In this document: piece after piece, positions 1 to 14,957 of the stretch
Numbering within the stretch: the stretch's first letter is position 1
Layout: every line of letters begins with the position of its first letter
Virus genome (UHGV): UHGV-1298062
Length of the DNA: 14,957 nt
Direction: 5' to 3' (one strand)
DNA from: a virus
Notes under the pieces: generated by a model
Database searches by the model: none
Seen by the model: the letters and a program-made list of their open reading frames with translations, nothing else
Told to the model about the DNA's origin: nothing
Made by a program: the position numbers and the translations under genes

Positions 1-86
1 GAAGCTCTACACTTTGAGCCTGTAAAATTGATTAAAAACTTATGTGTAAAATAGAACGCATTAGTCAGTAGCTAAGAGATGCAATA

Positions 87-854
87 ATGGACGATTTATC
101 GGTATACGCGAGATCATTGGATAAGGCTAAATACTATGTTTACTGTCTCTATGATACAGAAGACAAGATGAAAAGACCGTTTTACATAGGAAAAGGCAAA
201 TCGACTCGTTGTCTCGATCACATCAAGTATCCCGATGACTCTCCCAAATCCATGCGGATCAAAGAACTTTTGGCTAATAAAAAATTAGGCATAGATATTC
301 TTCGTCATGGTATGGATGAAACCACAGCCAAACTTGTTGAGGCGACATGCATCGACCTTATGGGGGTCGGAGAGCTTACGAATAAGGTACGAGGAAGTGG
401 TTCCATGATGGGCAGAATATCACTGGACGCCTACCATCACTTAGTGCTGCAAGAGGAAACTGAAATTGCTCCTGAGCACGCCGGTCTTGCCTTCCTGCTA
501 AACAGCACCTACAAGTCAGGAATGTCCGCTCTGGCATTATATGAAGCTACGCGTGGCGTATGGGCAAAGGTTCCAAGAGACGAGAATCTCAAATATGCCT
601 ACGCTACATATGGGGGCCTGATAATGGAAGTTTATCAGATTGAATGCTGGGTCAAAGCCGGTTCTCAGCAGTACTTTACAAGGGATATAGCTCTTGGCCC
701 CGACACAAAACGTTATGAATTTGTTGGCAGAATAGCCGATGAGCATATCAGAAAACTGTATGTAGGCAAATTAATCAAGAAGCCACCAAGCTACGGCAGC
801 CCTTTTGTGAAGGTTGGGGTGGTTAGGAATGAACATAGTGTTAGCGCGGCATAA
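87..854 (+). CDS. GIY-YIG-like nuclease domain protein with uncharacterised C-terminal domain
   Basis: ATG at 87 with AAGAG 8 nt upstream; 255 codons. N-terminal ~95 aa shows a GIY-YIG-like pattern (YVYCLYD ... FYIGKGK ... R..DH, then candidate catalytic E and N further on). C-terminal ~150 aa has no motif I can assign. Followed by the hairpin terminator at 870-908. Confidence 0.6.
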   Translation: MDDLSVYARSLDKAKYYVYCLYDTEDKMKRPFYIGKGKSTRCLDHIKYPDDSPKSMRIKELLANKKLGIDILRHGMDETTAKLVEATCIDLMGVGELTNKVRGSGSMMGRISLDAYHHLVLQEETEIAPEHAGLAFLLNSTYKSGMSALALYEATRGVWAKVPRDENLKYAYATYGGLIMEVYQIECWVKAGSQQYFTRDIALGPDTKRYEFVGRIADEHIRKLYVGKLIKKPPSYGSPFVKVGVVRNEHSVSAA

Positions 855-869
855 AGCTGACACTGTACT

Positions 870-908
870 TATGCATTGGCGCGTACATTGCGCCAATGCA
901 TAATTTTT
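870..908. terminator. Rho-independent terminator hairpin between convergent genes
   Basis: Perfect 13-bp inverted repeat tatgcattggcgc / gcgccaatgcata (870-882 and 890-902) with 7-nt loop, followed on the + strand by ATTTTT (903-908). Lies between the gene ending at 854 (+) and the gene ending at 907 (-). The T-tract is only on the + side, so it mainly terminates the + strand gene. Confidence 0.55.
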
Positions 909-1266
909 AACCTTTCTTCATCAACTCTCGTTTGATTTCATCGGTACGCATCGTGACATCGGCAGCTGTGATCGCCTCGTTAAGTTTCACGATGTCCTCG
1001 ATTTCCTGCGGTGACTTCTCTGCCAGATGGAAAATGGCTGCGCGAATCACGTCAGAACGGGTGAACTTCTCGAAACGAGGGATGAACTTCATCATTTCCA
1101 GCAGTTCGAAGTATTCGTCCTCCAGTGACATTGTGCGGCTTTTAATTTTCTCTTTGCCACGAGTCGGGCGTCCCTGTGGTCTGACTGGTTGGCGCAAAGG
1201 AGTTGTGTTCTTGGCCGGTGCATCAGGCTCTTTGCGCTTTGCTAGGTCACCCATTTTCATGGACAT
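907..1266 (-). CDS. small partner protein of the ParA-like ATPase (ParG/ParB-like, putative DNA-binding adaptor)
   Basis: ATG at 1266 overlaps the stop of the upstream ATPase gene (TAATG), implying translational coupling. 119 aa with a basic, Pro-rich N-terminal tail and a C-terminal region consistent with strand-helix-helix. Assignment is by position and size relative to a small ParA, not by a diagnostic motif. Confidence 0.5.
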   Translation of the reverse strand: MSMKMGDLAKRKEPDAPAKNTTPLRQPVRPQGRPTRGKEKIKSRTMSLEDEYFELLEMMKFIPRFEKFTRSDVIRAAIFHLAEKSPQEIEDIVKLNEAITAADVTMRTDEIKRELMKKG

Positions 1267-1934
1267 TATTCTTCTTCCTCCAGACTCAACAGATAATCTA
1301 CAAATTCTTCAAACTCGGCTTCCGCCTTTTTGTCGCGCTCGCTACCGGTCATTTCAAAGATAGAACGACCAGACTCTTCCGCATCATCATAGACGTTGCG
1401 GTTATATAAATTGACTGGCGCAGACTCGATGCCAAACGTCTCGACAATCTCTTTAGCCGCCAAAATGCGAGACACTTGTGATGGCAAAGCCGGGCACTGG
1501 TTCATGACCGCGCGGACCTTCACTTTATCGTTTACATTACGAACATTGTCGATAATAGGATCGATGTCACGCAGAGATTTCAAATCACGACGCTTAGGAC
1601 GAAGCGGGATAATGATAACGTCGGCCATCAGCATCGCTTGTCGCTGAATTTCGGAGTCAAAGCCACCAGCATCTACCACTACAAACTCAGCTCTACCCTG
1701 AAGCGATTTTAGGTGCTTAATGATGTCATCCTGAACGTATGCAAAAGGAATCAGCTCAAGGTCTTCGTTCTGTCGACGGTCTTCACACCAGCTTGTTGTC
1801 GTGCGCTGAATATCTATATCAGTGATATAAACCTTCTTCTTCTTTTTGACTTTCAGGCAAACGGCAATTTGCTGGGCAACAGTGGATTTGCCAGGCCCGC
1901 CCTTTGTGCCGCCAACCACAAAGATCTTGGTCAT
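1266..1934 (-). CDS. ParA/Soj-family ATPase (small, deviant Walker A; type Ib partition-like)
   Basis: ATG at 1934 with GGGAA 7 nt upstream; 222 aa. Deviant Walker A KGGPGKST near the N-terminus (VVGGTKGGPGKST). Its length and lack of an N-terminal HTH extension are typical of ParF-like small ParA proteins. Confidence 0.8.
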   Translation of the reverse strand: MTKIFVVGGTKGGPGKSTVAQQIAVCLKVKKKKKVYITDIDIQRTTTSWCEDRRQNEDLELIPFAYVQDDIIKHLKSLQGRAEFVVVDAGGFDSEIQRQAMLMADVIIIPLRPKRRDLKSLRDIDPIIDNVRNVNDKVKVRAVMNQCPALPSQVSRILAAKEIVETFGIESAPVNLYNRNVYDDAEESGRSIFEMTGSERDKKAEAEFEEFVDYLLSLEEEE

Positions 1935-2080
1935 TGGAGAGTTCCCTTTGCGTATATAATTATCGTCTGAAACAACTTGTTTTCTTATATGTGATATAGC
2001 CTAAATGCCTACGGCTGCGGTGTAAAGGTTATTTAGTAGGTTGTTATTGCCTATTGCTAGTAACTGTTTTCATTTGTCTG

Positions 2081-2109
2081 TTGAAAAAAGTGACAATCAT
2101 CTCTATATT
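2081..2109 (+). promoter_or_regulatory. candidate sigma70 promoter for the toxin-antitoxin operon
   Basis: TTGAAA (2081-2086), 17-nt spacer, TATATT (2104-2109) on the + strand in the divergent intergenic region, about 145 nt upstream of the antitoxin ATG. Read by eye, not scored. Confidence 0.4.
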
Positions 2110-2113
2110 ACGA

Positions 2114-2132
2114 GTACGGTAAATTGCCGTAC
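2114..2132. promoter_or_regulatory. inverted repeat GTACGG-N7-CCGTAC just downstream of the candidate -10 (possible operator)
   Basis: Perfect 6-bp arms at 2114-2119 and 2127-2132, placed around the inferred transcription start of the candidate promoter. Confidence 0.3.
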
Positions 2133-2214
2133 ACAATTTGATGACACATACGCAATGGGCTATAGCCCAGTTAAATAACCTTTGAGTCGAAAACTCAGTT
2201 TAAATAGAGAGCAA

Positions 2215-2243
2215 TGATGGCCTTCCTACATCACCGGCCATCA
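2215..2243. promoter_or_regulatory. inverted repeat TGATGGCC-N13-GGCCATCA adjacent to the antitoxin ribosome-binding site (candidate operator)
   Basis: Perfect 8-bp arms at 2215-2222 and 2236-2243, ending 10 nt before the antitoxin ATG at 2254 and overlapping the GGGGG Shine-Dalgarno region. Type II TA operons are usually autoregulated through palindromes at this position. Confidence 0.4.
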
Positions 2244-2253
2244 GGGGGTACAC

Positions 2254-2523
2254 ATGTCCGCACTGAAAAAGCAGCGCATCGATTTGAGATTAACCGATGA
2301 CGATAAAAGCATCATCGAGGAAGCTGCCGCAATGTCTAACCAGAGCATTACCCAGTTCATGGTTAGCAGTGCATCCGAACGTGCCGTGAAGGTGATAGAG
2401 CAACACCGTAGACTGGTTCTAAGTGAAGAGTCCTGGAATCTGGTTATGGATGCTATAAGCAATCCTCCGGCACCGAACGACAAGCTGAAACGAGCTGCCA
2501 ATCGTCTGAAAAGCATGGAGTAA
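2254..2523 (+). CDS. DUF1778-type ribbon-helix-helix antitoxin (AtaR/TacA/KacA family)
   Basis: ATG 2254 with GGGGG 5 nt upstream; 89 aa. The sequence (MSALKKQRIDLRLTDDDKSIIEEAAA...QFMVSSASERA...) matches my recollection of antitoxins paired with GNAT toxins. Only 8 nt separate it from the toxin gene. Confidence 0.82.
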   Translation: MSALKKQRIDLRLTDDDKSIIEEAAAMSNQSITQFMVSSASERAVKVIEQHRRLVLSEESWNLVMDAISNPPAPNDKLKRAANRLKSME

Positions 2524-2530
2524 TTTACTC

Positions 2531-3052
2531 GTGAGCAATACGACGATCGAGATTTTCTCTGGAGAGAACGATTATGATCTAAACGGTTTTGATTGCGGCG
2601 AAGAGTCACTAAACGCATTTTTGACCAACCACTTAAAAAGACAGCATGAAGGAAAAATTCTTCGCGCTTATGTGCTTTGCACTAAAGAAGAAATACCAAA
2701 GGTATTAGGTTATTACACTTTGTCAGGCAGCTGCTTTGAGAAAGAAACCTTACCTTCAAAGAGTCAGCAAAAGAAAGTGCCTTATCGGCATGTCCCAAGT
2801 ATCACTTTAGGCAGACTGGCTTTGGACAAATCTCTTCAAGGTCAGGGGCTTGGCTCAATGCTTGTAACTCACGCAATGCGTGTTGTGTACAATGCATCTC
2901 TTGCGGTAGGCATTCATGGGCTTTTCGTTGAGGCGTTGAACGATAAAGCCAGAGCGTTTTATAAAAGTTTGGGCTTTATCCAGCTGGTTGGTAACAACGA
3001 TCGTTCTTTGTTCTATCCAACAAAATCTATCGAAAAATTGTTCGAAGAATAA
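2531..3052 (+). CDS. GNAT-family acetyltransferase toxin (AtaT/TacT/KacT-like, tRNA-acetylating type)
   Basis: GTG 2531 is the only in-frame start, with GGAG 10 nt upstream; 173 aa. GNAT signature including the acetyl-CoA-binding block LQGQGLGSMLV. Conserved blocks (FDCGEE.LN.FL, ILRAY.LC, LGYYTL.GSCFE, PS.TLGRLA.D.SLQGQG, GIHGLFVEALN.KA..FYKSLGF) match tRNA-acetylating toxins as I recall them. Confidence 0.82.
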   Translation: MSNTTIEIFSGENDYDLNGFDCGEESLNAFLTNHLKRQHEGKILRAYVLCTKEEIPKVLGYYTLSGSCFEKETLPSKSQQKKVPYRHVPSITLGRLALDKSLQGQGLGSMLVTHAMRVVYNASLAVGIHGLFVEALNDKARAFYKSLGFIQLVGNNDRSLFYPTKSIEKLFEE

Positions 3053-3084
3053 TGTGTCCCCCTCATTTGAGGGGAACTTCGACA

Positions 3085-3288
3085 TCACCAACCGCAAACT
3101 CTCTCTCCCATCGTATTGTGAAAAAGGATTTGGCGTTCGGTTTCTTCGGTCATTACATCGTCATTGCTGATATAAATAGGTTCAGCGCCATCGCAGAACA
3201 ACACGCTGGTGGTCTGTGGCTTAATTGCGCACCCACTTATCATGCAGCTCACGATGAATGGCAGAAGCATCTTTCTGACGTATTTCAC
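3085..3288 (-). CDS. outer-membrane lipoprotein, o-spanin (Rz1)-like, overlapping the 3' end of the upstream gene
   Basis: 67 aa from GTG 3288 (alternative ATG at 3270). n-region MKYVRK, hydrophobic core, lipobox ISGC with Ala at +2 (outer-membrane sorting under Lol rules). Overlaps gene 3221-3472 by 68 nt in another frame. Not proline-rich, unlike lambda Rz1. Confidence 0.5.
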   Translation of the reverse strand: MKYVRKMLLPFIVSCMISGCAIKPQTTSVLFCDGAEPIYISNDDVMTEETERQILFHNTMGERVCGW

Positions 3289-3472
3289 TGTTCATCTCAT
3301 TCACCACTTCCACTGTGCTTTGAAGACGCTTGTTATCTTCCCGCCGTTCTTTCTCTTCCATACTGCGTCTGGCCATATACCCGCCATAGGAGTATGCGCC
3401 GACAAGGACTAGAATGACGGCGGCCAGAGTGAACAAAGCGGATTTCATTTTGAACAACAGGCCGTCGAACAT
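3221..3472 (-). CDS. small inner-membrane protein with N-terminal TM helix and charged coiled-coil tail (i-spanin/Rz-like, unusually short)
   Basis: ATG 3472 lies 2 nt after the stop of the upstream gene; 83 aa. Hydrophobic segment SALFTLAAVILVLVGAYSYGG, then a highly charged helical tail (RRSMEEKERREDNKRLQ...). Confidence 0.55.
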   Translation of the reverse strand: MFDGLLFKMKSALFTLAAVILVLVGAYSYGGYMARRSMEEKERREDNKRLQSTVEVVNEMNSEIRQKDASAIHRELHDKWVRN

Positions 3473-3474
3473 AC

Positions 3475-4167
3475 TTACACTAATCCTTTCTGGTGCTTGC
3501 GAACCTGGGACCAGGCAATGAATGCTGCCACAAGAATGGTAGCTACGCCAAAGATGATGCGTACCGTATCTCCACTGGAGATATTGCCTTGCGCTTTATC
3601 CATTGCGGCAGAAACTTGAGGCATAACGTCAGCAATTTGTGCAAGGCCAATACCTGCAGTGACTGTAGCACCTGTGGTTTCTTTTGTTACAGGAACGGCT
3701 TTTACAGCCTTTACCGGTTTGACAATGCCGGCACGTCGCAGACCTTCTTCGATAAGTTCTGGTGTATACCAGCTATTGGGGGTTTTCAGCGGACCTCGGC
3801 CATTTTCATGTCTAATGATCGCCTCTACCAGCGGTCTTAAGGTCTCGTAGTCATGCAGATCGATAATCATATCTGGTGCTACTCCAACGGCTTTGGATAC
3901 CTCGTTCACATAAGCCAAAGTGTTGTTCTCATGTGGAGGCGCCCAGCGTTCGATGACTTCGCGGATCGTATCAATGCTGGAGCCATCTTTTGCGCGGCGC
4001 TTGTCGTGGTAAGTAATGAGTGTCACTGCCAAAGCCCGAATCCCCCACACGGGGTCTTTGAACGTGCAGAAACGCGGTTCTGAAGAGTTGTTGACTAAGC
4101 CCTGCCACGGCGCTCCTTTATCAAGATTACCGGGGTTGTTATTACGAATGCCTCTCGGAGTTTTCAT
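3475..4167 (-). CDS. tail-anchored membrane protein with unassigned N-terminal domain (RNNNPGN block) and C-terminal TM helix
   Basis: Preferred start ATG 4167 (AGGAG 7 nt upstream); the ORF extends to an ATG at 4194. 230 aa, no N-terminal signal peptide. N-terminal ~150 aa globular domain (GIRNNNPGNL...W.G..., HENGRG), Lys/Val/Thr-rich linker, C-terminal hydrophobic helix IIFGVATILVAAFIAWSQV followed by RKHQK. Confidence 0.7.
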   Translation of the reverse strand: MKTPRGIRNNNPGNLDKGAPWQGLVNNSSEPRFCTFKDPVWGIRALAVTLITYHDKRRAKDGSSIDTIREVIERWAPPHENNTLAYVNEVSKAVGVAPDMIIDLHDYETLRPLVEAIIRHENGRGPLKTPNSWYTPELIEEGLRRAGIVKPVKAVKAVPVTKETTGATVTAGIGLAQIADVMPQVSAAMDKAQGNISSGDTVRIIFGVATILVAAFIAWSQVRKHQKGLV

Positions 4168-4180
4168 CCTTGATCTCCTG

Positions 4181-4504
4181 TTATTGCAATCCATTTTTTA
4201 CGCCATACGCGGCCAATCCTAAAAGCAGTACGGTAATAATGAACGACGTTATTTTCGAAACAATGCCGCCAAAGAACCCACTGGAGATGGTGTCGAGCCG
4301 GTTAAGAAGTTTGTCCAGATTGGAGTGCTGAATGCTGTGTTGTGCGGGCGTCATATCGCCAAAGTAGGTTTTGAGCTGGTCATTGACCTCCTGACCAATT
4401 TCCTCGCGTATTTCTTTACCTAATTTGCCTACGACTTCCCGAGCAACGATTGAGGCGATGCGCTCAACCTGTTCAGTTGTGACTCCCGCCATCTCGTTCG
4501 ACAT
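4181..4504 (-). CDS. small tail-anchored membrane protein (charged soluble N-terminal region, single C-terminal TM helix); holin-like or regulatory
   Basis: Preferred start ATG 4504 (GGAGGA 5 nt upstream); the ORF extends to an ATG at 4516. 107 aa; C-terminal helix ITSFIITVLLLGLAAYGV. A 13-nt gap containing the next gene's RBS separates it from 3475-4167. Confidence 0.65.
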   Translation of the reverse strand: MSNEMAGVTTEQVERIASIVAREVVGKLGKEIREEIGQEVNDQLKTYFGDMTPAQHSIQHSNLDKLLNRLDTISSGFFGGIVSKITSFIITVLLLGLAAYGVKNGLQ

Positions 4505-4540
4505 GTTTTCCTCCATGAAAAGTCAAATCGGGATGGCGTG

Positions 4541-4549
4541 TTTATATCA
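4541..4549 (-). promoter_or_regulatory. candidate extended -10 element (TGATATAAA) for the membrane-module operon
   Basis: Minus strand reads TGATATAAA (complement of 4541-4549), about 25-35 nt upstream of the first in-frame ATGs of gene 4181-4504. No convincing -35 hexamer. Confidence 0.35.
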
Positions 4550-4564
4550 TATTTTAACCATTTG

Positions 4565-4588
4565 TAGTAGGTATGTACTTACCTACTA
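4565..4588. promoter_or_regulatory. perfect palindrome tagtaggta-N6-tacctacta upstream of the membrane-module operon (candidate activator or repressor site)
   Basis: 9-bp arms at 4565-4573 and 4580-4588 with 6-nt spacer tgtact. Centre lies about 42 bp upstream of the start site inferred from the extended -10. The core is shared with motifs at 7978-7997 and 14787-14802. Confidence 0.4.
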
Positions 4589-4637
4589 TATATCTTGCAA
4601 ACTAATCGTTGTTAATAATGCAGATATAATCTGCCCC

Positions 4638-5219
4638 TTACTCTGCTGGTATTGTTGGCCAGTCAATATCCGGTGCCGTTGATGTGTCAATGCGGTTCAA
4701 TAAAACTCTATACTTCTTCCATGCAGTCAGCAACGATGCTTCTTCCTCCGTTGCAATCTCCAAATCTACAGCATCCTGAAGTGGCGCAATGTGCTCGCTG
4801 GCTACCTGCATCAGACTTTTTTTTGTTTCTTCCGCTTCCCGTACCTGAAACAATTTTTCTGTTTCCTCATCCTTCTCCCAGGATGTGCCGTCCCACTTCT
4901 GATATTCCCCATCCGGTGATAACCAGGTGACATTTTCCGGTAATGGCCCAAGTTCAGAAATAAACAACGCGTCCCCTGATTCCACGTCATAGACCGTTTT
5001 ACCCCTGTGGTCTTCAACGAGACTCCATGATTTATTTTCGCTGTTGAATACGGCCACGAAGCCTGCCGGAATATCTGGCGGTGCAATATCGGTACTGTTT
5101 GCTGGCAGACCTGTATAAGGCGGAATATATGCGTCACCTTCACCAATAAATTCATTAGTTCCGGCCAGCAGATTATAAATTTTTATGGTCCGTGGTTGTT
5201 CACTCATTCTGAATGCCAT
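4638..5219 (-). CDS. tfa: tail fibre assembly protein Tfa (lambda Tfa-like)
   Basis: 193 aa. Matches phage lambda Tfa along its whole length as I recall it ([34 protein letters not shown]...[14 protein letters not shown]). ATG 5219 overlaps the stf stop (TAATG). Confidence 0.9.
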
Positions 5220-7933
5220 TATGCAAGCCTCACAATATAGTTAAATGCGATGTTTTTGACGGTGTTTTCCGCGTTACCAGCAGCGTTAACGGTGATGGTG
5301 TGTCCATGTGAACCAATCGCAACGGAGTGCGTATGAGCACCAATACCGACAGTATGTGTGTGTGCACCTGCGCTTGCAGCAGTACCCGATACAGAGTGCG
5401 TATGAGCGCCTGCAGAAGAAGTGTTAACACTGTATTTAGAATAATCAGGTGATCCACTTCCCGGAGCACCACTGGAACCACCTGAAACAAATGTCATCGA
5501 ATGGGTATGTGCACCGGCTGAAGCAGCCGTACCGCTAACACTATGGGTATGCGCACCAGTGTTATTCGTGGATTTAGTGCCGTAATCAAACGACGATGTG
5601 GTTTTCGTCCCCAAATCCGTACTGGATGCGCTGGCGCTGTGGGTGTGCGATTTAATGCCGTCCTGTTCCTGAGACAATACGGCACGACCACTGGCGGGCT
5701 TGCCCTTAATCGTCCAGCCACGCATATCAGGGATCACGCCTGACGGATACGCAACCGCAAGCAGGGGATAGGCTGCCTTATCAAAAGCCTGCCCCTGCAT
5801 AATGGCATAGCCTGTAGGTACTGAATCAGAAGGCCACGGAATCGCCGCACCTACCGGAAATGAATCCTGCGGCGTCCAAGGTGTCCAGCCACCCGTTGAA
5901 TACTGGCTGCGGGTATAGCTTCTGGATGTGTTATACACATAGTAAATTTGTGTTATTCCGGCATTTTTAAGCACAACCAGAGTGCCCGCAAGGTTCTCCG
6001 GGTATTTCAGCGATGCGCTTGCATTCGCATTCAGTGGCTGATGGTACAGCCCCGGCGTTTTGTAATTATCCAGATTCTGGTTTGCACCAATCTCAATACT
6101 CTGACTGTTAAAAATATCCTGCGATGTAACATTGACATCATTGGTCAGTGGTTTGCCATTGACCTTACGCTCGCCAGGAACGCGCCCGTTTGCATTATCA
6201 TTAGCTGCTTTCACTGCTTTCGGTGTCGCGGCAAACGTTTCAGATGCGCTGTTGGTTGCACTACTGAGCTGGACAATTCCTTTTTGTGCTGTCGTAGCGT
6301 CCTGAGCAGTATATTTCCCGTTAGCAAGGTCATAGGCTGCCTTTACCGACTTTGGCGTTGCCGCCAGCATTTCAGATGTGCTGTTGGTCGCGTTGCTAAG
6401 CTGAACTATCCCTTTCTGTGCTGTCGTTGCATCCTGTGCGGTGTATTTCCCGTTAGCCAGGTCATACGCGGCCTTAACGGCTTTTGGTGTTGCCGCCAGT
6501 GACTCGGAAGTACTGTTGGTCTCACTGCTAAGTTGTACTATTCCCTTATTCGTCGTGCTTGCATCCTCAAGCGCCACGGCGGATGCAATATCCTCTGCCC
6601 GTTTTGCCGCTGTCTCAGAGCGTGTTGCCGCGGATTCTGCCGCATTTTTGCTCTGCGCAGCCGCCGTCGCACTGTCTGCCGCTTCCGTCGCCTTCGTTGA
6701 TGCCGTTGTCGCACTCTCTGCTGCCGCTGACGCCTGGCGAGCGGCCTCATCTTTTGAAGATGACGCCGAGGAAGCTGAAACAGAGGCAGAGCTTGCAGAT
6801 TCGGCTGCTGTCTCCTTAGAAGCAGCGGCATTGTCTTCTGAAGTCTTTGCATTGGTTTCAGAAGATTTTGCCGCCTCTGCTGACTTTTCCGCAGCTGTTG
6901 CCTGTTCCGTCGCCTCTGTCGCTTTAGCGGTGGTATTTGCCGCAGATAACGAAGCGCTTTCCGCAGACTTTTCTGCCGACGTTGCACTTGATGAAGCACT
7001 ATCCGCGCTTATTGAGGCCGCGCTCGCTGACGTTTCTGCCGCAGATTTAGAACTGTTTGCAGACAATGCACTCTGTTCGGCAGCAGCTTCAGACGCTTTT
7101 GCGTTTGTCTCTGATGCTTTTGCTGCCTTACATGAATTTGCAGCTTCTGTAGCTGATGATGCTGCCGCGTTTGCACTCGATGAAGCGTTAGTCTCTGATA
7201 ATTTAGCCGCATCCTTAGATGCAGAGGCACTGGACGCTGATGTGGCTGCCTCCGATGCTTTAGTCGACGCCACAGATGCTGATTTTGCTGCCGCTTCTTT
7301 TGCCGCTTCTGCGTTTGTTTCAGATTTTTCCGCAGCAGCTGCACTCTCACTCGCCGCACTTTGTGAAGATACCGCAGCGGATGCACTTTGAGATGCCTGA
7401 GAGGCTTTTTCTACAGCAGTGTTGGCACTTTCTGCCGCAGCGACAGCACTGGCCGCCGCCTCCCGAGCTTTGTCTCCAGCGGCCTCAATCGCATCGGTGT
7501 TATTTTTATACCACTCAACGTTTTCGTTATGCTCGTTGACGATCTGCATTAGCGGCTTAACGGTCACTTCTGTACCGTCTTCACGCTCGATTGTCACATC
7601 ATCCAGAGCGGTCAACCAACTGCGCATGGACTTGGAATCAGCCGACATACGCGACATTAGTGCAGTAAAGCGCGCACTAAACTGAGTTAAGTCGCCTTCA
7701 TAGGTCGTAATGATTCGGCACGGAACTTTAGATTGAGTTTCGCCGGTATAAGGTTCTGAGAGGACAATGACCGTATCACTGGTTACGCGCTTGACCTCAT
7801 ACAACTTATTGTCAGGACCAATGACAATCATGCCCGGTAACACGCCGTTTTCGGTCAAATTCCAACGTGTTCCGATGCCTGATATTGTGTCGCTTCCTTT
7901 TGTAAATGTAACAGTACCTTCCCTGTACCACAT
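5219..7933 (-). CDS. stf: side tail fibre protein Stf (lambda Stf-like C-terminal part, different N-terminal domain)
   Basis: Preferred start ATG 7933 (AAGGAG 11 nt upstream); the ORF extends to GTG 7975. 904 aa. Ala/Ser-rich low-complexity shaft, three tandem tail-fibre repeats ([42 protein letters not shown]), C-terminal block matching lambda Stf ([45 protein letters not shown]) with HxH repeats. Confidence 0.9.
6190..6570 (-). repeat. about 2.8 tandem copies of a 132-bp in-frame repeat inside stf (phage tail-fibre repeat)
   Basis: Period seen directly: gtatatttcccgttagcaagg at 6309 and gtgtatttcccgttagccagg at 6441 (132 bp apart). Encodes the repeated KGIVQLSS...[19 protein letters not shown] unit. 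Boundaries approximate. Confidence 0.6.
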
Positions 7934-7953
7934 GTTCTTTTTCACTCCTTGAA

Positions 7954-7975
7954 GTGTGGGCGTCCTTGCCCACAC
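7954..7975 (-). other. GC-rich hairpin in the stf leader (8-bp stem gtgtgggc/gcccacac, 6-nt loop)
   Basis: Perfect inverted repeat at 7954-7961 and 7968-7975, 20 nt upstream of the stf AAGGAG RBS. No U-tract follows on the mRNA strand, so it is not a classical terminator. Confidence 0.4.
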
Positions 7976-7977
7976 AA

Positions 7978-7997
7978 ATAGGTATATACTTACTTAT
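7978..7997. promoter_or_regulatory. imperfect palindrome ataggta-N6-tacttat sharing the GTAAGTA.ATACCTA core with the site at 4565-4588
   Basis: 7-bp arms with one mismatch. On the minus strand it reads GTAAGTATATACCTA versus GTAAGTACATACCTA at the other site (14 of 15 identical). Lies in the J-stf intergenic region. Confidence 0.35.
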
Positions 7998-8068
7998 TAT
8001 CAATGATACAAAATCCTTTTGCACTAAGAAAACACGCTATATACATTGCTGCTCATTATTCCTATCAA

Positions 8069-11000
8069 TTAACTGATGCCCGACATGGAAAATGCGCCAC
8101 TTCCACGGCTGATTAGCATCACGGGCGAATAAATATGTGTCTGTGATGAACTGGTCACTTTTACCGTAACAGCAACAGTTCTTGAGGTAACATTGTTAAA
8201 AGCAGCGTAAAGAGTGCCACCGACGCCTGTAGATCTTGTTGAATTAAGATCAGGGTCTCTGTATGTTGCCCCCTTACCAGTGGCTGCGGTCTTCGTCACT
8301 CCATTGCAGGTAAATTGTGCTGCAACAGGGCCGACGCCCCCCGTATATACATTTATTGCCACATAAATATTTTTGGGCAATGCAGACGAAGAAGAGTCTG
8401 TATATGTCATTGTATATGTGCCGCTGTTACGAACTGAGAAGTCATTGCCCACATACATGTTAGCGACATCGCCTACGAAGTGATCTGCTTGTACCGTGCC
8501 TCTGAATGTTCCGCTGGTAGCCTGTATTTCTCCTGTGAATTTGCCATTCGTTGCGTAAACGGTGCCTCTAACAGTTACATTGTTAAACTCTGAGTTCCCG
8601 TTTTTATTAATATGCCACCCCGTCATCCCGCTTGAGTAATCGTTGGACTGAATGAAGTTGCCTATTTTGGCGTTATCAATGGTGCCGTTCTTGATATAAG
8701 CTCCGTTCATATAAGCCACACCGGCATCAATAACGAATGGCGTTGTAATTTTCCCATTAACGGAGTTCACCAAACCAAAGCGATCTGCCTGCACCAAAAA
8801 CTGCGATAGACCTGTTGTGTCGATGCCCAACGCTATGCCGGCAACATATTTTTGGCCTCCGCTGGTGGAGGTTTCCATTTTCAGCGTCCAGGCTGTTGAT
8901 ACCTTCTTGTTCGTATCAGCAATAGCTGTGGCCTGTTGTTGAATTGTTGCTGTATTTCCATCTACTGATGCTTTTAAGGTGTCAACTCTCCCACTTAGTG
9001 CATTGTCGGCGCTTGTACGCGTAGTCGCTTCAGATGTAATCGCAGCATGAATATCTTTGCTCGTTTGAGCCTGTAGATTAGTGATATTAGAAGCCAAAGC
9101 GGAATCAGCATCAGTTCTGGCTTTCGTCTCTTCAGCTACAGCCGCCTTAATATCCTTGCCCGTTTGACTCTTCAATGTAGTTATCTGTTGTGCCAAAGAT
9201 TCGTCGGCAGTTGCTCGGGCGTTTTTTTCTTCAGATATAGCGGCACTAATATCGCCTTCAACTTTGGCTTGTAACGATAGGACTTCTTTTGAAAGTGCTT
9301 CATCGGCACTGGCTCGCGCCTCTTGTTCACTCACAATTGCGGCAGAAATGTCATCGTTAATCTTTGATTCAAGTTTGGTGATTCTGCTTCCAATAGCATT
9401 ATCCGCATCTACACGAGCCGTAGTCTCTTCAGTGATTGAAGCTCTGATATCCTCATTTATTTCAGCTCTAATCTCTTCCATTTTCGTAGCCATTGCGGAC
9501 ATATCATCTGCAAAAGCCTTCTGAGTTGTGGCGATCCTGGCATTGCTCACCATCTGTTTGTGCTGGTCTTCATCCTGACGCAAAGCTAAATCGATGTTTG
9601 TTTTAGCCAATGCCTCAATGTTTGTCGTCACTTCGGCACTGGAGTGCTCGACTTCAGCCACGGTTTTTTTCATCTCTTCAATGGTGGCCAAACTGCTATC
9701 TACAGTTGACTTCATTGCCTCGATTTCTTTCGCGTTCGCCAAGTCGCCTTCGACTCGTGCCTCACGTTCCTCCGCAACTAAAGCCGATGAATTGTCCAGT
9801 GCTGCATTCGCGGCCTCAACCGCTCCAGCAACGACCTTGTCCTGCTCTGAAACAGTTTCCTTCAACTGAATTAATGCGGCATTTGAGTTTTCAACCTCCT
9901 TAAGAGCCTCTTCCACCTTGCTGACAGTATTAGAAACTTCCGTTCTAAGAACGTTTTGGGCTTCTTCAATCCGTTGATCGGTCTCAGTAAATTTGTCATC
10001 AAGGCTTTTCAGGCTTTCTTCCATCTGCTTGTTGATTGCGTCGACGGCTTCCTGCGAGGCTTTGGTGTCGATTTCCTCAAGCAGTTCCTGCCCCAATTCC
10101 GAAGAAGTGATCTTCCCGGTCAGGAAAGACAGAACATCTTTCGTCATCGCCTCAGTGCCCAAATTGGAGTTGGGCTGGCTCAACATTCCGCGTTTGTTTG
10201 CTGCACGAACCCAATAGAACCAAGTTTCGCTATCTCCAAGACCTGCGTGCGTAAAGGTGGTACTGGCTGCTTCGGCAATTAGTTTTGCAGTATCCAGGTT
10301 GTTGGTCCGGGATGCATACACGTTGATGTGATCGAGGTCGATTGAGTCCGGGTTAACCCAATTCAGAATCACATTGCGGTAGTCGCCCACGGCCGTCAGT
10401 GCAGTCGGTGCATCCGGCGGCGTCATCGTCCCCTGAACTTTGTAGACGGTGCTGATAATTTCTGTTTTTTTACCGTTGAATGAAACCGCATACAGTTGGA
10501 AGTCGTAGCGTCCATTCTCCGCGACATTAACGATTTCGTATTGCTCTTCGGTTACACGCGCCGATTGCCAGTTCGATACATTGTTTGCATCAGAACGTCG
10601 CCAACTGATCCAATACTCTGGAGATTTCCCTTCCCATGTTGCAGTCAGTTTTACTGACAGGTTGCCCGGGCTTGAGAGATAAGTCCCTTCAGTGATTTGC
10701 AAATTAGACGGCTTGGAGTAAGTCGGGTCCAATACCGTCGTATTCTGCGGGATAAGCGTTGCACCATTGTCGATCGCCTCATATTTAGACGGATTGTTTT
10801 CAACAGCGGTGATGTCAAAGCTACCCGACGTTTCCCCCTGAGCGATGTTAACGATGCGAACGCGCATAGGTTCGAGATCTGGTTCTGTAATTGTCCAGAC
10901 ACCGTTCAAAACAGGCGTTTCCGCTGACGACAGGGCTTTTGAAAACGTAACTTTTGTTATATTTTCGCCAGTTTCAAGAACATCGCGTTCAACGATTTTG

Positions 11001-12643
11001 CCTTCCTGATTCAGTATTCGAATAAAGCAGCCGCCTTTGGCTAACGACACAGGCGCATCGAGTGTGACGCTGTTTTTAGTAAACGCCACAATTCGACCTG
11101 AGTTACGTTTGCCTGCGCGATATTTGTTCTGAATCAGAACGGTTTCACCAGGCATCAAAAATGACGCGTCTAAGCCGGCAGTAAATGTAATTACATCCGA
11201 CTCCATTCTGGCGGTATATAAAAGCCACAAACCAACTCGGTGAGCCTGCCCTCGGCTTGTACAGCCAAATGCTACGACTTCTGTCTTACGCTCACCATAA
11301 CGGCGCATTGCGTCCTGATCTTCAACGTACTCGATGTTTTGCTTATAACCGTCCTCCTTGTTGTTGTAGGTTACGAGCGCAACGGATGGGCGATCTTTAC
11401 GCGCAGAACCTTTATAGGTAAACAATCCATCTTTGACGTTAGAGTTGGTAAACATCATTACCGGATCTGATGGGCTATCCTGCATGATGTTAACCATCCC
11501 ACCAGCCCAAAACACCATGCCGCGGAATGCTCCAGCAATATCCTGAATTAGCCGGTATGCGTCCTGTCGACTGGTGATCTGCGTATTGATTGCAAAGCGT
11601 TTCTCTTTGCCACCAAAGCCATCATCGACCTCTTCGTCACAATATCGACCAATCTGGTACAACTGGCCAAGGTCAATCATAGATTCCGACACATACTGAC
11701 CAAGGCCATATCGAGCATTGGTCAGCAAATCAAAGAGAATCCACGCAGGGTTTGAAGAAGACAACAGCTTAAAAGTACCGTCCCATACGCCGACATAAGT
11801 ATTGGTGTATTCGTTGTAGTTTGACGGTACTCGGATTTTTATACCGCGCACCAAATACGAACGGGAAGGCATTGTGCTACCAAACTGCTCTGAATTGACC
11901 TTCAAGCCAACAAGAGCAGAGTTAGGGTAGTTCATTGGCGTGTCGACAATTTCCCCGATGGAATCCACCCATGTATCGTTATAGAGATACTGAGTTTTGC
12001 TGTCGTCGGTTAGACGTATGACACGAACCTTATATGCACGGCCAGGTTTCGGCAGTTTGAGTTCATAGCTGCGGTAGTAAACACCTGTCTTCTTCGCTGT
12101 CAGTGCAATTTCAACGTCTTTCTCACCTTCAGCAACGACATCGGCAAATGTTCCATCGCCATTGGCAATCTGGAACTTGTATTTGACTGTTGTACCGTTG
12201 GTGTCGCCGGATTTCTTATCCACGGAACGTAGAGAGGGGAATTTGAGAATGAGTCGAACGCGGTCAGCTTCATCGTTATCGATGGAGACCGTGACATCAT
12301 GCGTCTTTTTCAACTGAATGTTGATGGACTTCGGCGTCTCGACGAAATCAAAACCGGCCATAGGCGTCTGATCTTGCGAACCATCGCGAAAATCCCATGT
12401 AATACCGCTGTAGTTTGCAGAGCCGTCTTCATTGAGGATCGGCAGGTCGTCGATAAAAATCGACTTTGCTCCGTCGACAAGACCGCCAATAACGCCTTCC
12501 CCGAGCAAGTCGAGGATGGACGCCATAGCACGCGAGTTAACGGTATCATCGGCTTCAACCGGCGTGCGGCTGGAGCTGCTGCTTTTCTTGCCGCCTGCAC
12601 CTGCGATCAGGAGAGGCAGTCTTTTCTTCTTGAACTGTTCCAT
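8069..12643 (-). CDS. J: tail tip host-specificity protein J (lambda gpJ family) with central coiled-coil insertion and divergent C-terminal domain
   Basis: Preferred start ATG 12643 (AAGGA 10 nt upstream); the ORF extends to TTG 12649. 1524 aa versus about 1130 aa for lambda J. Conserved gpJ blocks present (GKKSSSSSRTP N-terminus, VWDGTFK, AFGCTSRGQAHR.GLWL, YVAGI.LG....LSQFLV). Roughly 330 aa of coiled-coil repeats inserted in the middle; last ~140 aa unlike the lambda J C-terminus. Confidence 0.92.
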   Translation of the reverse strand: MEQFKKKRLPLLIAGAGGKKSSSSSRTPVEADDTVNSRAMASILDLLGEGVIGGLVDGAKSIFIDDLPILNEDGSANYSGITWDFRDGSQDQTPMAGFDFVETPKSINIQLKKTHDVTVSIDNDEADRVRLILKFPSLRSVDKKSGDTNGTTVKYKFQIANGDGTFADVVAEGEKDVEIALTAKKTGVYYRSYELKLPKPGRAYKVRVIRLTDDSKTQYLYNDTWVDSIGEIVDTPMNYPNSALVGLKVNSEQFGSTMPSRSYLVRGIKIRVPSNYNEYTNTYVGVWDGTFKLLSSSNPAWILFDLLTNARYGLGQYVSESMIDLGQLYQIGRYCDEEVDDGFGGKEKRFAINTQITSRQDAYRLIQDIAGAFRGMVFWAGGMVNIMQDSPSDPVMMFTNSNVKDGLFTYKGSARKDRPSVALVTYNNKEDGYKQNIEYVEDQDAMRRYGERKTEVVAFGCTSRGQAHRVGLWLLYTARMESDVITFTAGLDASFLMPGETVLIQNKYRAGKRNSGRIVAFTKNSVTLDAPVSLAKGGCFIRILNQEGKIVERDVLETGENITKVTFSKALSSAETPVLNGVWTITEPDLEPMRVRIVNIAQGETSGSFDITAVENNPSKYEAIDNGATLIPQNTTVLDPTYSKPSNLQITEGTYLSSPGNLSVKLTATWEGKSPEYWISWRRSDANNVSNWQSARVTEEQYEIVNVAENGRYDFQLYAVSFNGKKTEIISTVYKVQGTMTPPDAPTALTAVGDYRNVILNWVNPDSIDLDHINVYASRTNNLDTAKLIAEAASTTFTHAGLGDSETWFYWVRAANKRGMLSQPNSNLGTEAMTKDVLSFLTGKITSSELGQELLEEIDTKASQEAVDAINKQMEESLKSLDDKFTETDQRIEEAQNVLRTEVSNTVSKVEEALKEVENSNAALIQLKETVSEQDKVVAGAVEAANAALDNSSALVAEEREARVEGDLANAKEIEAMKSTVDSSLATIEEMKKTVAEVEHSSAEVTTNIEALAKTNIDLALRQDEDQHKQMVSNARIATTQKAFADDMSAMATKMEEIRAEINEDIRASITEETTARVDADNAIGSRITKLESKINDDISAAIVSEQEARASADEALSKEVLSLQAKVEGDISAAISEEKNARATADESLAQQITTLKSQTGKDIKAAVAEETKARTDADSALASNITNLQAQTSKDIHAAITSEATTRTSADNALSGRVDTLKASVDGNTATIQQQATAIADTNKKVSTAWTLKMETSTSGGQKYVAGIALGIDTTGLSQFLVQADRFGLVNSVNGKITTPFVIDAGVAYMNGAYIKNGTIDNAKIGNFIQSNDYSSGMTGWHINKNGNSEFNNVTVRGTVYATNGKFTGEIQATSGTFRGTVQADHFVGDVANMYVGNDFSVRNSGTYTMTYTDSSSSALPKNIYVAINVYTGGVGPVAAQFTCNGVTKTAATGKGATYRDPDLNSTRSTGVGGTLYAAFNNVTSRTVAVTVKVTSSSQTHIYSPVMLISRGSGAFSMSGIS
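8975..9470 (-). repeat. five tandem 99-bp in-frame repeats inside J (33-aa coiled-coil units)
   Basis: Repeat landmarks at about 9051, 9150, 9249, 9348 and 9447 give a 99-bp period. Encodes five units of the form DI.AAI..E...R..AD.AL...I..L. Copies are diverged; boundaries approximate. Confidence 0.55.
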
Positions 12644-12659
12644 GTTCAAAAAATCCTTA

Positions 12660-14729: not shown

Positions 14730-14751
14730 TGTTTCTTCCTTGAAATAAAAA

Positions 14752-14774
14752 GGCGCCAACATCCTGTCAGCGCC
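14752..14774 (-). other. terminator-like hairpin just upstream of the L ribosome-binding site
   Basis: ggcgc / gcgcc 5-bp GC stem (14752-14756 and 14770-14774) with 13-nt loop. On the minus-strand transcript it is followed by UUUUUAUUU and then the L RBS. Short stem and large loop, so strength is doubtful. Confidence 0.3.
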
Positions 14775-14902
14775 ACAATGATAGTAAATTAGTACTTACT
14801 TATCCAGGTACTTAAGCCTCAAATACTTGTCTGAATGTAGCAGTTAAGACACAGTACCCCTGATATCGCTTAGACTGGCCCCCTGAATCTCCAGACAACC
14901 AA

Positions 14903-14922
14903 TATCACTTAAATAAGTGATA
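14903..14922. promoter_or_regulatory. 20-bp palindrome TATCACTTA-AA-TAAGTGATA (candidate dimeric DNA-binding protein site)
   Basis: Perfect 9-bp arms with 2-nt spacer in the non-coding region upstream of L. Half-site TATCAC equals the first six bases of the lambda operator consensus half-site, but the spacing differs from 17-bp lambda operators. Confidence 0.35.
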
Positions 14923-14957
14923 GTCTTAATACTAGTTTTTAGACTAGTCATTGGAGA

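What the first reader, a model, noticed from the sequence alone, without database searches (positions are those of the whole stretch)
907..1934. Type Ib partition-like module (small ParA plus coupled small partner) inside a lambdoid prophage tail-distal region
A 222-aa deviant Walker A ATPase (KGGPGKST) is translationally coupled (TAATG) to a 119-aa basic protein, the standard layout of plasmid parA-parG/parB operons. It is co-oriented with the tail operon and flanked by a TA module, which is also a plasmid-stability function. This suggests plasmid-derived cargo or an element able to persist extrachromosomally. Small ParA ATPases are also reused for positioning other cargo, so the function is open.
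Basis: partly seen in the sequence, partly recalled or inferred. Interest (0 to 1): 0.45.

Follow-up and report, generated by a model that had tools for sequence, protein, structure and literature searches.

The report
Partition genes of a phage-plasmid
The two genes look like the plasmid-segregation cassette (a small ParA ATPase plus an uncharacterised partner) of an SSU5/pHCM2-type phage that lives as a plasmid, so this is an expected, largely ordinary feature rather than plasmid cargo in a lambda-like prophage.

Summary
On the minus strand, a 222-aa deviant-Walker-A ATPase (1266-1934) overlaps (TAATG) a 119-aa protein (907-1266) whose N-terminal half is basic.

The context was misread. The window is 99.8% identical to a 115-kb E. 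coli plasmid that is an SSU5/pHCM2-type phage-plasmid. All 323 E. coli matches lie on plasmids and none on chromosomes.

The ATPase is the only ParA on that replicon. Its best solved relative is ParF of TP228, a type Ib ParA. The partner belongs to a very small family (18 representatives among 1.84 billion proteins). In all 12 relatives inspected it lies directly 3' of the ParA gene, and the two proteins diverge together. Its layout resembles ParG: a conserved N-terminal MGDLAKR peptide, a disordered basic linker, and a ribbon-helix-helix-like motif. The fold is supported only by sub-threshold matches.

No centromere iterons lie nearby. The one upstream element conserved in the SSU5-like relatives compared is a 13-bp palindrome. 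It occurs 14 times on the plasmid and persists in pMT1, which lacks this module, so it is a regulon-wide operator and not a centromere.

Verdict: most likely the element's own type Ib-like partition operon, with the centromere unidentified. Low to moderate interest.

The parts
1266..1934 (-). parA-like gene: a 222-aa deviant Walker A ATPase (KGGPGKST) of the small type Ib, ParF-like kind
   Evidence: ORF and translation. Pfam MipZ/AAA_31/CbiA hits. NCBIfam ParA_partition 115.7 bits over 9-213, below the 180-bit cut-off. PHROG 164 'ParA-like partition protein', E=4e-51. Best solved relative is ParF of TP228, E=1.2e-10, residues 9-199 against 8-189. It is the only ParA homologue on the 115-kb host plasmid.
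907..1266 (-). Partner gene, 119 aa. It has an N-terminal conserved peptide MGDLAKR, a disordered basic linker, a ribbon-helix-helix-like core (SRTMSLEDEY...TRSDVIRAAI) and two further C-terminal helices. It is the putative centromere-binding and ParA-activating protein.
   Evidence: Translation. PHROG 5111, function unknown, E=4.5e-80. Family alignments A2 and A5. AlphaFold models with residues 1-24 below pLDDT 50 and helices at 48-59, 70-82, 86-97 and 101-118. Sub-threshold RHH matches over the same residues in several family members. The gene always lies immediately 3' of the ParA gene.
1264..1281 (-). Gene junction: the TAATG stop/start overlap (1264-1268) and a GGAGG Shine-Dalgarno sequence (1277-1281) formed by the last Leu-Glu codons of parA
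   Evidence: Read directly from the sequence. A C-terminal S/T-L-E in ParA, followed by an abutting or overlapping partner start, is seen in 6 of 9 lineages (coordinates).
1968..2031 (-). A 64-nt non-coding block upstream of parA holding the promoter and operator. The par-specific half (about 1985-2031) is the best, still weak, candidate for the partner's binding site or centromere.
   Evidence: The block is identical in the window, SSU5 and Cyrano, with one mismatch in Klebsiella pJN2-26, although the overall DNA match (coding sequence plus flanks) is only 86% and 80% identical. The part outside the palindrome is single-copy on the plasmid and absent from pMT1.
1969..1984 (-). Palindrome GAAAACAAGTTGTTTC (core AAACA-N3-TGTTT), about 35-50 nt upstream of the parA ATG. 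It is a regulon-wide operator or promoter element, not a par-specific centromere.
   Evidence: It is the only upstream element conserved in all the SSU5-like relatives compared. The core occurs 14 times on the host plasmid against 0.13 expected, almost always just 5' of a gene start. pMT1, which lacks this ParA and partner, has 4 copies. It is absent from the loci of the most distant partner-bearing relatives.
1996..2011 (-). Two tandem 8-bp boxes, TAGGCTAT and TAGGCATT, with a third box TAGGCAAT at 2046-2053. These are speculative partner-binding boxes.
   Evidence: Three of the 10 TAGGCWWT sites on the 115-kb plasmid fall within 60 bp upstream of parA on the sense strand. L010 has two such boxes at the same 8-bp spacing, whereas other lineages have one or none. 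The motif was chosen after seeing the sequence, so the evidence is weak.
869..903 (.). Perfect 14-bp-arm hairpin followed by a T-run, lying between the converging partner gene and the GIY-YIG gene; probably a terminator of the par operon
   Evidence: (I3). The sequence 3' of the partner stop is not conserved in SSU5, where homology starts at window position 909.

Best explanation
This is most likely the active partition (segregation) operon of an SSU5/pHCM2-type phage-plasmid, a temperate siphovirus of about 110 kb that is kept as a low-copy IncFIB-type plasmid.

Proposed mechanism:
1. The 222-aa protein is a small ParF-like (type Ib) ParA. As an ATP-bound dimer it would bind the nucleoid non-specifically.
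2. The 119-aa partner would bind a site on the phage-plasmid through its ribbon-helix-helix-like core. The best guess for that site is the par-specific half of the conserved block just upstream of parA, where binding would also autoregulate the operon.
3. The partner's conserved N-terminal peptide (MGDLAKR, on a disordered basic tail) would stimulate ParA's ATPase.
4. The resulting ParA gradient would space plasmid copies so that each daughter cell inherits one.

What is shown here: gene identity, the replicon context, strict gene linkage, co-divergence of the two proteins, and the absence of any other ParA on the plasmid.

What is inferred: the partner's fold, its DNA target, ATPase stimulation, and the partition phenotype itself.
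For: - Context. The window is 99.8% identical over 14.9 kb to plasmid pEC21Z137-115K, a complete SSU5-like phage-plasmid with repA, iterons, and head, tail and lysis genes.
- Distribution. The module is found in 264 of 5,426 complete E. coli genomes, always on plasmids (323 places, 0 chromosomal). It is in 724 PLSDB plasmids, 690 of them non-mobilizable, and in isolated phages SSU5, Cyrano and PhiR41_1.
- ATPase. ParF is the best solved relative, with Walker A, A' and B aligned. It also matches NCBIfam ParA_partition and PHROG 164. There is no second ParA on the plasmid.
- Partner. In 12 of 12 relatives inspected (14 loci) the partner lies directly 3' of the ParA gene. Identities fall together: ParA/partner 91/92, 82/92, 68/48, 66/64, 73/51, 51/36, 50/35, 40/30%.
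- Partner layout matches what is described for ParG in PMC7308502: a conserved N-terminal motif (L8 invariant, K10 in at least 90% of sequences), a variable disordered linker, and RHH-type motifs.
- RHH support. Matches to RHH_1 (E=0.005 and 0.11) and to the aCcr1 RHH model (E=2e-4 to 0.01) cover the same residues in six family members.
- No hit to anti-phage defence models for the ATPase; for the partner only an insignificant 14.6-bit match (HEC-02B, E=0.006).
Against: - No centromere-like iterated repeats lie next to the operon.
- Every dispersed repeat found on the plasmid also occurs in pMT1, which lacks this module.
- The partner's fold is unconfirmed. There is no Pfam or PDB hit above threshold. 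hhalign against ParG gave E=0.51 and against CopG E=0.019. The monomer models have pLDDT 66-68 and matched nothing in PDB or BFVD.
- The ParA scores below NCBIfam's ParA_partition cut-off (115.7 against 180 bits).
- No experimental study of this module turned up in the literature searches.
Confidence: 0.72

Rival explanations
1. The ParA/partner pair serves the phage cycle instead of, or in addition to, plasmid partition. It might position replicating or packaging DNA, or modulate late gene expression, as the Sop partition system of the linear phage-plasmid N15 is reported to do.
For: - The par promoter carries the same 13-bp palindrome and -10-like box as at least 13 other promoters on the element. 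These include the promoters of the DnaB-like helicase operon and the terminase-proximal operon.
- The module sits between the lysis cassette and the phage replication genes.
- N15 is a precedent (Ravin et al. 2008, cited in PMC11652158).
Against: - All carriers found in the annotated collections are extrachromosomal, about 100-120 kb, and need active segregation.
- This is the only ParA on the replicon.
- pMT1, which lacks it, carries a type Ia ParAB instead, as expected if the two systems are functionally interchangeable partition modules.
Confidence: 0.12
2. The real centromere-binding partner of this ParA is one of the two ParB_N-domain proteins encoded about 30 kb away next to the terminase. 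The 119-aa protein would then be only a transcriptional regulator or accessory factor.
For: - The plasmid encodes two ParB N-terminal-domain proteins, one of them annotated as a 'ParB/RepB/Spo0J family partition protein'.
- Surveillance studies use an SSU5 'parB' as a marker gene (10.1101/2025.09.12.675607).
Against: - These proteins show only the ParB_N domain in Pfam, with no HTH or dimerisation domain.
- They sit in an operon with an ABC-type ATPase beside the packaging genes.
- One is flagged as frameshifted in the plasmid that is 99.8% identical to the window.
- The same pair is kept in pMT1, which has no ParF-like ATPase and uses a type Ia ParAB.
- The 119-aa gene, in contrast, is inseparable from the ParA gene and co-diverges with it.
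Confidence: 0.06
3. The partner is a global regulator that binds the 13-bp palindrome AAACA-N3-TGTTT at all 14 sites. The scattered operators would then double as dispersed centromeres, comparable to KorB/OB of RK2 or the omega protein of pSM19035.
For: - The palindrome is the only element upstream of parA shared by all the SSU5-like relatives compared.
- The putative DNA-reading strand of the partner (SRTMS[LI]EDE) is equally conserved.
- AAACA half-sites are enriched upstream of parA in L007 (6 copies) and in the distant relative L014 (4 copies, shuffle P=0.009).
Against: There is a double dissociation.
- pMT1 lacks both ParA and partner yet keeps 4 perfect palindromes in the same promoter architecture (0.09 expected).
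- The most distant partner-bearing loci (L013-L015) contain no palindrome.
Confidence: 0.06
4. The database labels attached to these genes elsewhere are correct: the ATPase is a MipZ-type division-plane positioning protein and the partner is a RelE/ParE toxin.
For: - PGAP names the ATPase 'division plane positioning ATPase MipZ' in some plasmids.
- The Pfam MipZ model scores 52 bits.
- The phage Cyrano record calls the partner a 'RelE/ParE putative toxin'.
Against: - The MipZ match covers only profile positions 2-150 of 262 (the shared P-loop half), whereas ParF and ParA_partition align over the full length.
- The partner has no ParE/RelE hit in Pfam or NCBIfam even at E up to 10.
Confidence: 0.02

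Closest known systems
ParF-ParG-parH segrosome of plasmid TP228 (type Ib partition)
   Same: - A small Walker ATPase without an N-terminal DNA-binding domain. ParF is the best solved relative (E=1.2e-10, near full length).
- The downstream gene encodes a small protein with a flexible N-terminal tail followed by an RHH-type motif. This is the layout described for ParG in PMC7308502.
- Upstream regulatory DNA is placed where ParG's operator and centromere lie.
   Different: - The partner shows no detectable sequence relationship to ParG (hhalign E=0.51).
- It is longer (119 against 76 aa) and has two extra C-terminal helices.
- No parH-like array of tetramer boxes is visible.
- The host is a phage-plasmid, not a resistance plasmid.
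pCXC100 ParA-ParB (type Ib, Leifsonia xyli)
   Same: A type Ib system whose centromere-binding protein had no detectable DNA-binding motif by sequence (PMC3074162 abstract). This is a precedent for the situation found here.
   Different: It is unrelated in sequence, comes from a Gram-positive host, and has a defined centromere region, which is not identified here.
SopAB of the linear phage-plasmid N15 and ParAB of P1 (phage-plasmid partition systems)
   Same: Partition operons that maintain a prophage as a low-copy plasmid. The N15 system also has a reported role in late gene expression (Ravin et al. 2008, cited in PMC11652158).
   Different: These are type Ia systems, with a large ParA carrying an N-terminal regulatory domain and a large HTH ParB (my knowledge of the families). 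The system here is type Ib-like, with a 119-aa partner.
Type Ia ParAB of pMT1 (Yersinia pestis), a member of the same SSU5 supergroup
   Same: It is the partition module carried by a related phage-plasmid backbone that lacks the module studied here. pMT1 has ParA at 68956-70161 and ParB at 67988-68959.
   Different: It belongs to a different partition family (401-aa ParA plus ParB-family protein) and lies at a different place in the replicon.

Membership tests
Type Ib (small, ParF-like) ParA partition ATPases | Deviant Walker A motif KGGxGK[ST] with the signature N-terminal lysine, plus Walker A' and Walker B aspartates | tested here: met
   GTKGGPGKST at residues 9-18. DIDIQ and VVVDAGG align with the ParF motifs.
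Type Ib (small, ParF-like) ParA partition ATPases | Small size (about 200-230 aa) with no N-terminal HTH or regulatory extension | tested here: met
   222 aa. Walker A starts at residue 9, and the ParF alignment runs 9-199 against 8-189.
Type Ib (small, ParF-like) ParA partition ATPases | Score above the curated family threshold (NCBIfam NF041546 ParA_partition, equivalog) | tested here: not met
   115.7 bits against a cut-off of 180, although the alignment is full length (9-213 against 6-202 of 203). It is a diverged relative, not an equivalog.
Type Ib (small, ParF-like) ParA partition ATPases | Operon with a small centromere-binding-protein gene immediately downstream | tested here: met
   TAATG overlap in the window. 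The partner gene is adjacent or overlapping in all 12 relatives inspected.
Type Ib (small, ParF-like) ParA partition ATPases | Centromere of iterated repeats adjacent to the operon | tested here: not met
   No repeat array in 800-2300 or downstream. Only a single palindrome, which is genome-wide, and 2-3 weak TAGGCWWT boxes.
Type Ib (small, ParF-like) ParA partition ATPases | Stabilises a low-copy replicon; the partner stimulates the ATPase | not testable with these tools
   Requires plasmid-loss and ATPase assays.
ParG / ribbon-helix-helix centromere-binding proteins | Dimeric ribbon-helix-helix DNA-binding fold | tested here: inconclusive
   Sub-threshold RHH_1 and aCcr1 matches cover the same residues in six family members, and predicted helices at 48-59 and 70-82 fit the pattern. 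There is no significant profile, PDB or fold match.
ParG / ribbon-helix-helix centromere-binding proteins | Sequence homology to ParG of TP228 | tested here: not met
   hhalign of family profile A5 against ParG gave E=0.51 over 10 columns. The ParG sequence was verified against PDB 1P94.
ParG / ribbon-helix-helix centromere-binding proteins | Flexible N-terminal tail carrying a conserved basic ParA-activating motif | tested here: inconclusive
   Residues 1-24 have pLDDT below 50. MGDLAKR is conserved across the family. Activity was not tested.
SSU5 supergroup phage-plasmids (host element) | Extrachromosomal replicon of about 100-115 kb with IncFIB-type repA, siphovirus structural genes and synteny with phage SSU5 | tested here: met
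   99.8% identity over 14.9 kb to pEC21Z137-115K. Full plasmid annotation. The par region is 86% identical to SSU5 with the same gene order. There are 0 chromosomal copies among 5,426 E. coli genomes.
MipZ (division-plane positioning ATPase) | Full-length match to the MipZ family | tested here: not met
   The Pfam MipZ hit covers profile positions 2-150 of 262 only, and the PDB MipZ alignments stop at residue 128.
RelE/ParE toxins (label given to the partner in phage Cyrano) | Match to a RelE/ParE family model | tested here: not met
   No such hit in Pfam or NCBIfam at E up to 10 for any family member.

The most novel reading that the evidence does not exclude
The par operon is wired into a regulon that spans the whole phage-plasmid: at least 14 promoters share a -10-like box and the palindrome AAACA-N3-TGTTT, including those of the helicase and the terminase-proximal operons. 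Its small partner defines a new family of ParA adaptors that works without a conventional repeat-array centromere. Partition would then be switched together with replication and lytic genes and might also act in the phage cycle, as reported for N15 Sop.
Probability: 0.15. Interest if true: 0.55.

Novelty: new member of a known kind. Interest (0 to 1): 0.25.

Why it matters
SSU5/pHCM2-like phage-plasmids are common in Escherichia, Klebsiella, Salmonella and Shigella. About 5% of complete E. coli genomes carry this module, and these elements can carry resistance genes; the matching plasmid has dfrA51.

Their stable inheritance presumably depends on this operon, yet the literature searches here found no experimental work on it. 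The partner is annotated as hypothetical or wrongly as a toxin, and the ATPase is sometimes mislabelled MipZ.

Recognising the pair as one type Ib-like unit gives a defined target for curing or incompatibility experiments and corrects the annotation. The finding does not change what is known about how partition works.

Tried and rejected
1. Centromere search. Direct and inverted repeat search, Tandem Repeats Finder and a plasmid-wide k-mer cluster scan found iterons only at repA (plasmid 1.05-1.7 kb and 114.7-115.1 kb) and nothing at par.

2. The upstream palindrome as centromere. Rejected: it is a 14-copy regulon motif, it is present in pMT1, which lacks the module, and it is absent from distant partner-bearing loci.

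3. Large palindromes ACCTGCTTCCGTATA...TATACGGAAGCAGGT (plasmid 44.8, 74.75 and 100.0 kb) and the TAAGTAAGTA motif as dispersed centromeres. Rejected, because both also occur in pMT1.

4. ATTGGCGC and GCCGTTTC motifs at plasmid 82.4-83.0 kb. Only modest enrichment and no link to par.

5. Partner fold.
   - PDB sequence searches with the single sequence and with two profiles gave nothing significant.
   - Pfam and NCBIfam at permissive thresholds gave only sub-threshold RHH hits.
   - hhalign against ParG and CopG was not significant.

6. A profile search of 1.84 billion representatives found only 18 family members and no bridge to an annotated family.

7. Anti-phage defence role. PADLOC has no hit for the ATPase and only an insignificant match for the partner.

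8. Literature. No paper on the SSU5 or pHCM2 partition mechanism was found. Gilcrease & Casjens 2018 is not held.
Full report
**Observation**

The two ORFs are real and lie on the minus strand. The first, 1266-1934, encodes a 222-aa protein with the deviant Walker A sequence GTKGGPGKST. The second, 907-1266, encodes a 119-aa protein.

The ParA stop codon and the partner ATG share one base (TAATG, 1264-1268). A GGAGG formed by the last Leu-Glu codons of ParA lies 10 nt upstream of that ATG. RefSeq starts the partner two codons later, which still leaves only a 5-nt gap.

The partner is basic overall (pI 9.6). The charge sits in residues 1-45 (pI 11.4), while the C-terminal 74 residues are acidic.

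The flanking toxin-antitoxin pair (TacA-like 2254-2523, GNAT toxin 2531-3052) is confirmed.

**Context: a phage-plasmid, not a lambdoid prophage**

Window positions 1-14875 are 99.8% identical to E. coli plasmid pEC21Z137-115K (NZ_CP101235.1). The full annotation of that plasmid shows:
- repA with flanking iterons;
- DNA polymerase III alpha, ligase, helicase and primase genes;
- a complete siphovirus head, tail and lysis set;
- accessory cargo.

The 1.45-kb par region matches phages SSU5 (86%), Cyrano, PhiR41_1 and several Klebsiella phages. It also matches 724 PLSDB plasmids, 690 of them non-mobilizable, from Klebsiella, Escherichia, Enterobacter, Salmonella, Citrobacter, Cronobacter and Shigella.

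Among 5,426 complete E. coli genomes it occurs in 264. All 323 copies are on plasmids and none is chromosomal.

These are the SSU5-supergroup phage-plasmids described in PMC7969092, which notes that their tail genes resemble those of lambdoid siphoviruses. The alternative it offered, an element able to persist extrachromosomally, is the correct one.

**Position in the element**

In the window, SSU5, pJN2-26, Cyrano and loci L007-L015, the ParA gene follows the tail-fibre and lysis genes, with the partner gene directly after it. Where the locus extends far enough downstream (all but L012-L015), a 241-248-aa gene and the DnaB-like helicase and primase genes come next.

What varies is the cargo on either side. 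The TacAT pair is present here and in Cyrano, but absent at this position in SSU5, pJN2-26 and L007-L011. The GIY-YIG gene at 87-854 replaces other genes found in SSU5. The TA neighbour therefore carries no information about the function of the par genes.

**The ATPase**

- The best solved relative is ParF of TP228 (E=1.2e-10, residues 9-199 against 8-189), with Walker A, A' and B aligned. MipZ aligns only over the N-terminal P-loop half.
- NCBIfam ParA_partition aligns over the full length but scores 115.7 bits, below its 180-bit cut-off.
- PHROG 164 'ParA-like partition protein' matches at E=4e-51.
- tblastn finds no second ParA on the 115-kb plasmid.
- The PGAP label 'MipZ' on some copies is a domain-level artefact.

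**The partner**

It belongs to PHROG 5111, whose function is unknown. The family is very small: 25 clusters at 90% identity and 18 representatives at 50% identity among 1.84 billion proteins.

Family alignments show three conserved parts:
- an N-terminal peptide, (M/F)G(D/G)L(A/G)K(R/K);
- a linker of variable length ending in RPQGRPTRGK;
- a core, I-K-S-R-T-M-S-L-E-D-E-Y ... F-T-R-S-D-V-I-R-A-A-I, which reads like a ribbon-helix-helix strand, helix A and the N-cap of helix B, followed by two more helices.

AlphaFold monomer models place residues 1-24 below pLDDT 50 and helices at 48-59, 70-82, 86-97 and 101-118.

Support for the RHH reading is consistent but sub-threshold. Pfam RHH_1 gives E=0.005 (P0027, residues 49-85 against profile 3-36 of 39) and E=0.11 (P0034). 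The aCcr1 RHH model gives E=2e-4 to 0.01 in five members. All these matches cover the same stretch.

Everything else was negative:
- no PDB sequence relative;
- hhalign against ParG E=0.51, and against CopG E=0.019 in the right register;
- no significant structural match;

The protein is therefore not a sequence-level member of the ParG family. An RHH fold is plausible but unproven. pCXC100 ParB is a precedent for a type Ib centromere-binding protein with no recognisable DNA-binding motif by sequence (PMC3074162).

The strongest argument that the partner works with the ATPase is genetic. The two genes are adjacent in all 12 relatives inspected, and their identities to the window proteins fall together, from 91/92% down to 40/30%. 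The 'RelE/ParE toxin' label in Cyrano has no support.

**Centromere**

There are no iterated repeats in 1935-2253 or around the operon. A plasmid-wide k-mer scan finds iterons only at repA.

Comparison of upstream regions shows a 64-nt block (1968-2031). It is identical in the window, SSU5 and Cyrano, with one mismatch in pJN2-26, even though the overall DNA match, mostly coding, is only 86% and 80% identical.

Only one part of the block is shared with the more distant relatives L007, L009, L010 and L011 as well: CATAAGAAAACAAnTTGTTT(T)CA.

That palindrome is not specific to par:
- AAACA-N3-TGTTT occurs 14 times on the plasmid against 0.13 expected. Nearly every copy lies just 5' of a Shine-Dalgarno sequence and ATG, and is preceded by a -10-like ATAATAACAC or TATTATTTACGC box. 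The genes involved include the helicase, a CobT-like gene, the terminase-proximal gene and a cluster of small genes.
- pMT1 of Yersinia pestis belongs to the same supergroup but lacks this ParA and partner and carries a type Ia ParAB. It still has 4 perfect copies in the same architecture.
- The most distant partner-bearing loci have no copy.

This double dissociation argues that another protein binds the palindrome. The par promoter is simply one member of an element-wide promoter and operator class.

Two other dispersed motifs were rejected in the same way, because both are also present in pMT1: the roughly 58-bp palindromes ACCTGCTTCCGTATA...TATACGGAAGCAGGT, and TAAGTAAGTA.

What remains specific to par is the half of the conserved block outside the palindrome, about 1985-2031. 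It is single-copy on the plasmid and absent from pMT1. It contains two tandem 8-bp boxes, TAGGCTAT and TAGGCATT, with a third box at 2046-2053. I regard this as the best candidate for the partner's operator or centromere. The evidence is weak, and the motif was chosen after seeing the sequence.

**The distal 'ParB' genes**

The plasmid encodes two ParB_N-only proteins and an ABC-type ATPase beside the terminase. They lack a recognisable DNA-binding domain, and one is flagged as frameshifted in this plasmid. pMT1 keeps them even though it uses a different partition system. They are unlikely to be this ParA's partners.

**Conclusion**

The finding is most likely the phage-plasmid's own type Ib-like partition operon. 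That fits the 'ParA-like partition protein' label in the SSU5 reference record.

This analysis adds four things:
- the hypothetical downstream gene is the obligate partner, and its layout resembles ParG;
- no conventional repeat-array centromere is present;
- the operon's promoter belongs to a regulon of at least 14 promoters;
- several database labels (MipZ, ParE toxin) are wrong.

No experimental characterisation was found in the literature held here. Interest is low to moderate.

Noticed in passing
window 1969-1984; host plasmid NZ_CP101235.1 positions 25840, 43915, 46847, 74662, 85969, 86460, 86838, 87969, 89533, 89584, 91285, 91601, 95327, 96525: The 13-bp palindrome AAACA-N3-TGTTT occurs 14 times on the 115-kb phage-plasmid (0.13 expected). 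Almost every copy lies directly 5' of a gene start and is preceded by a -10-like ATAATAACAC or TATTATTTACGC box and a GCC(G/T)TTT box. This looks like an element-specific promoter and operator class whose binder is unknown. pMT1 keeps 4 copies.
   Followed up: partly
window 87-854 (+): The 255-aa GIY-YIG protein next to the par operon matches the single-gene anti-phage defence system PD-T4-3 in PADLOC (E=1.3e-23, near full length) and Pfam LEM-3_GIY-YIG. It is an insertion relative to SSU5, which has other genes at this position.
   Followed up: partly
window 2254-3052 (+): A TacA-like (DUF1778) antitoxin and GNAT acetyltransferase toxin pair is transcribed divergently from parA. It is variable cargo: present here and in Cyrano, absent at this position in SSU5, pJN2-26 and L007-L011.
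   Followed up: yes
window 14870-14957: The last 88 bases are not collinear with the reference plasmid. They match the sequence flanking an IS3-family transposase gene (plasmid 108588-108675) and a repeat present in 4,773 of 5,426 E. coli genomes. In the window's source an IS end therefore seems to abut or interrupt the gpM-like minor tail gene, which could make the phage defective.
   Followed up: partly
L001 19124-19176 (plasmid 44799-44853, 25 bp left of the window start); also plasmid about 74736-74792 and about 99957-100014: Palindromes of about 58 bp, ACCTGCTTCCGTATATATTTAATAAGT / ACTTA..TATATACGGAAGCAGG, occur at three intergenic sites and are conserved in SSU5, L010 and pMT1. Their function is unknown; an operator or an origin are possibilities.
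   Followed up: partly
host plasmid positions 30200, 32895, 33811, 44704, 52864, 59670, 72714, 85563, 97452, 105491, 113532: A second dispersed motif, ATAAGTAAGTA (sense TACTTACTTAT), occurs 11 times, mostly about 20 nt upstream of gene starts, including inside the structural gene cluster. It may mark a second, possibly late, promoter class.
   Followed up: no
L003 15350-16100 (plasmid 82.35-83.1 kb): A 618-bp intergenic region is rich in GGCGC-containing inverted repeats and has four direct copies of GCCGTTTC. Its function is unknown.
   Followed up: partly
L003 9237-11238 (plasmid 76.2-78.2 kb); pMT1 30072-32073: Two ParB_N-only proteins and an ABC-type ATPase form an operon beside the terminase. 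The operon is conserved in pMT1 regardless of which partition system is present, so these are probably phage-function proteins rather than partition proteins.
   Followed up: partly
window 6238-6547: A 132-bp tandem repeat (2.3 copies, 79% matches) lies inside the 918-aa tail fibre gene, corresponding to the repeated '[21 protein letters not shown]' protein segments.
   Followed up: no
NC_018843 SSU5_034 (L004 3999-4289); OV696614 CYRAN_29; several RefSeq plasmids: Annotation problems. The SSU5 partner gene is annotated 23 codons short, although the full 119-aa ORF is intact. Cyrano labels it a RelE/ParE toxin. PGAP names the ATPase 'MipZ' on some plasmids.
   Followed up: yes
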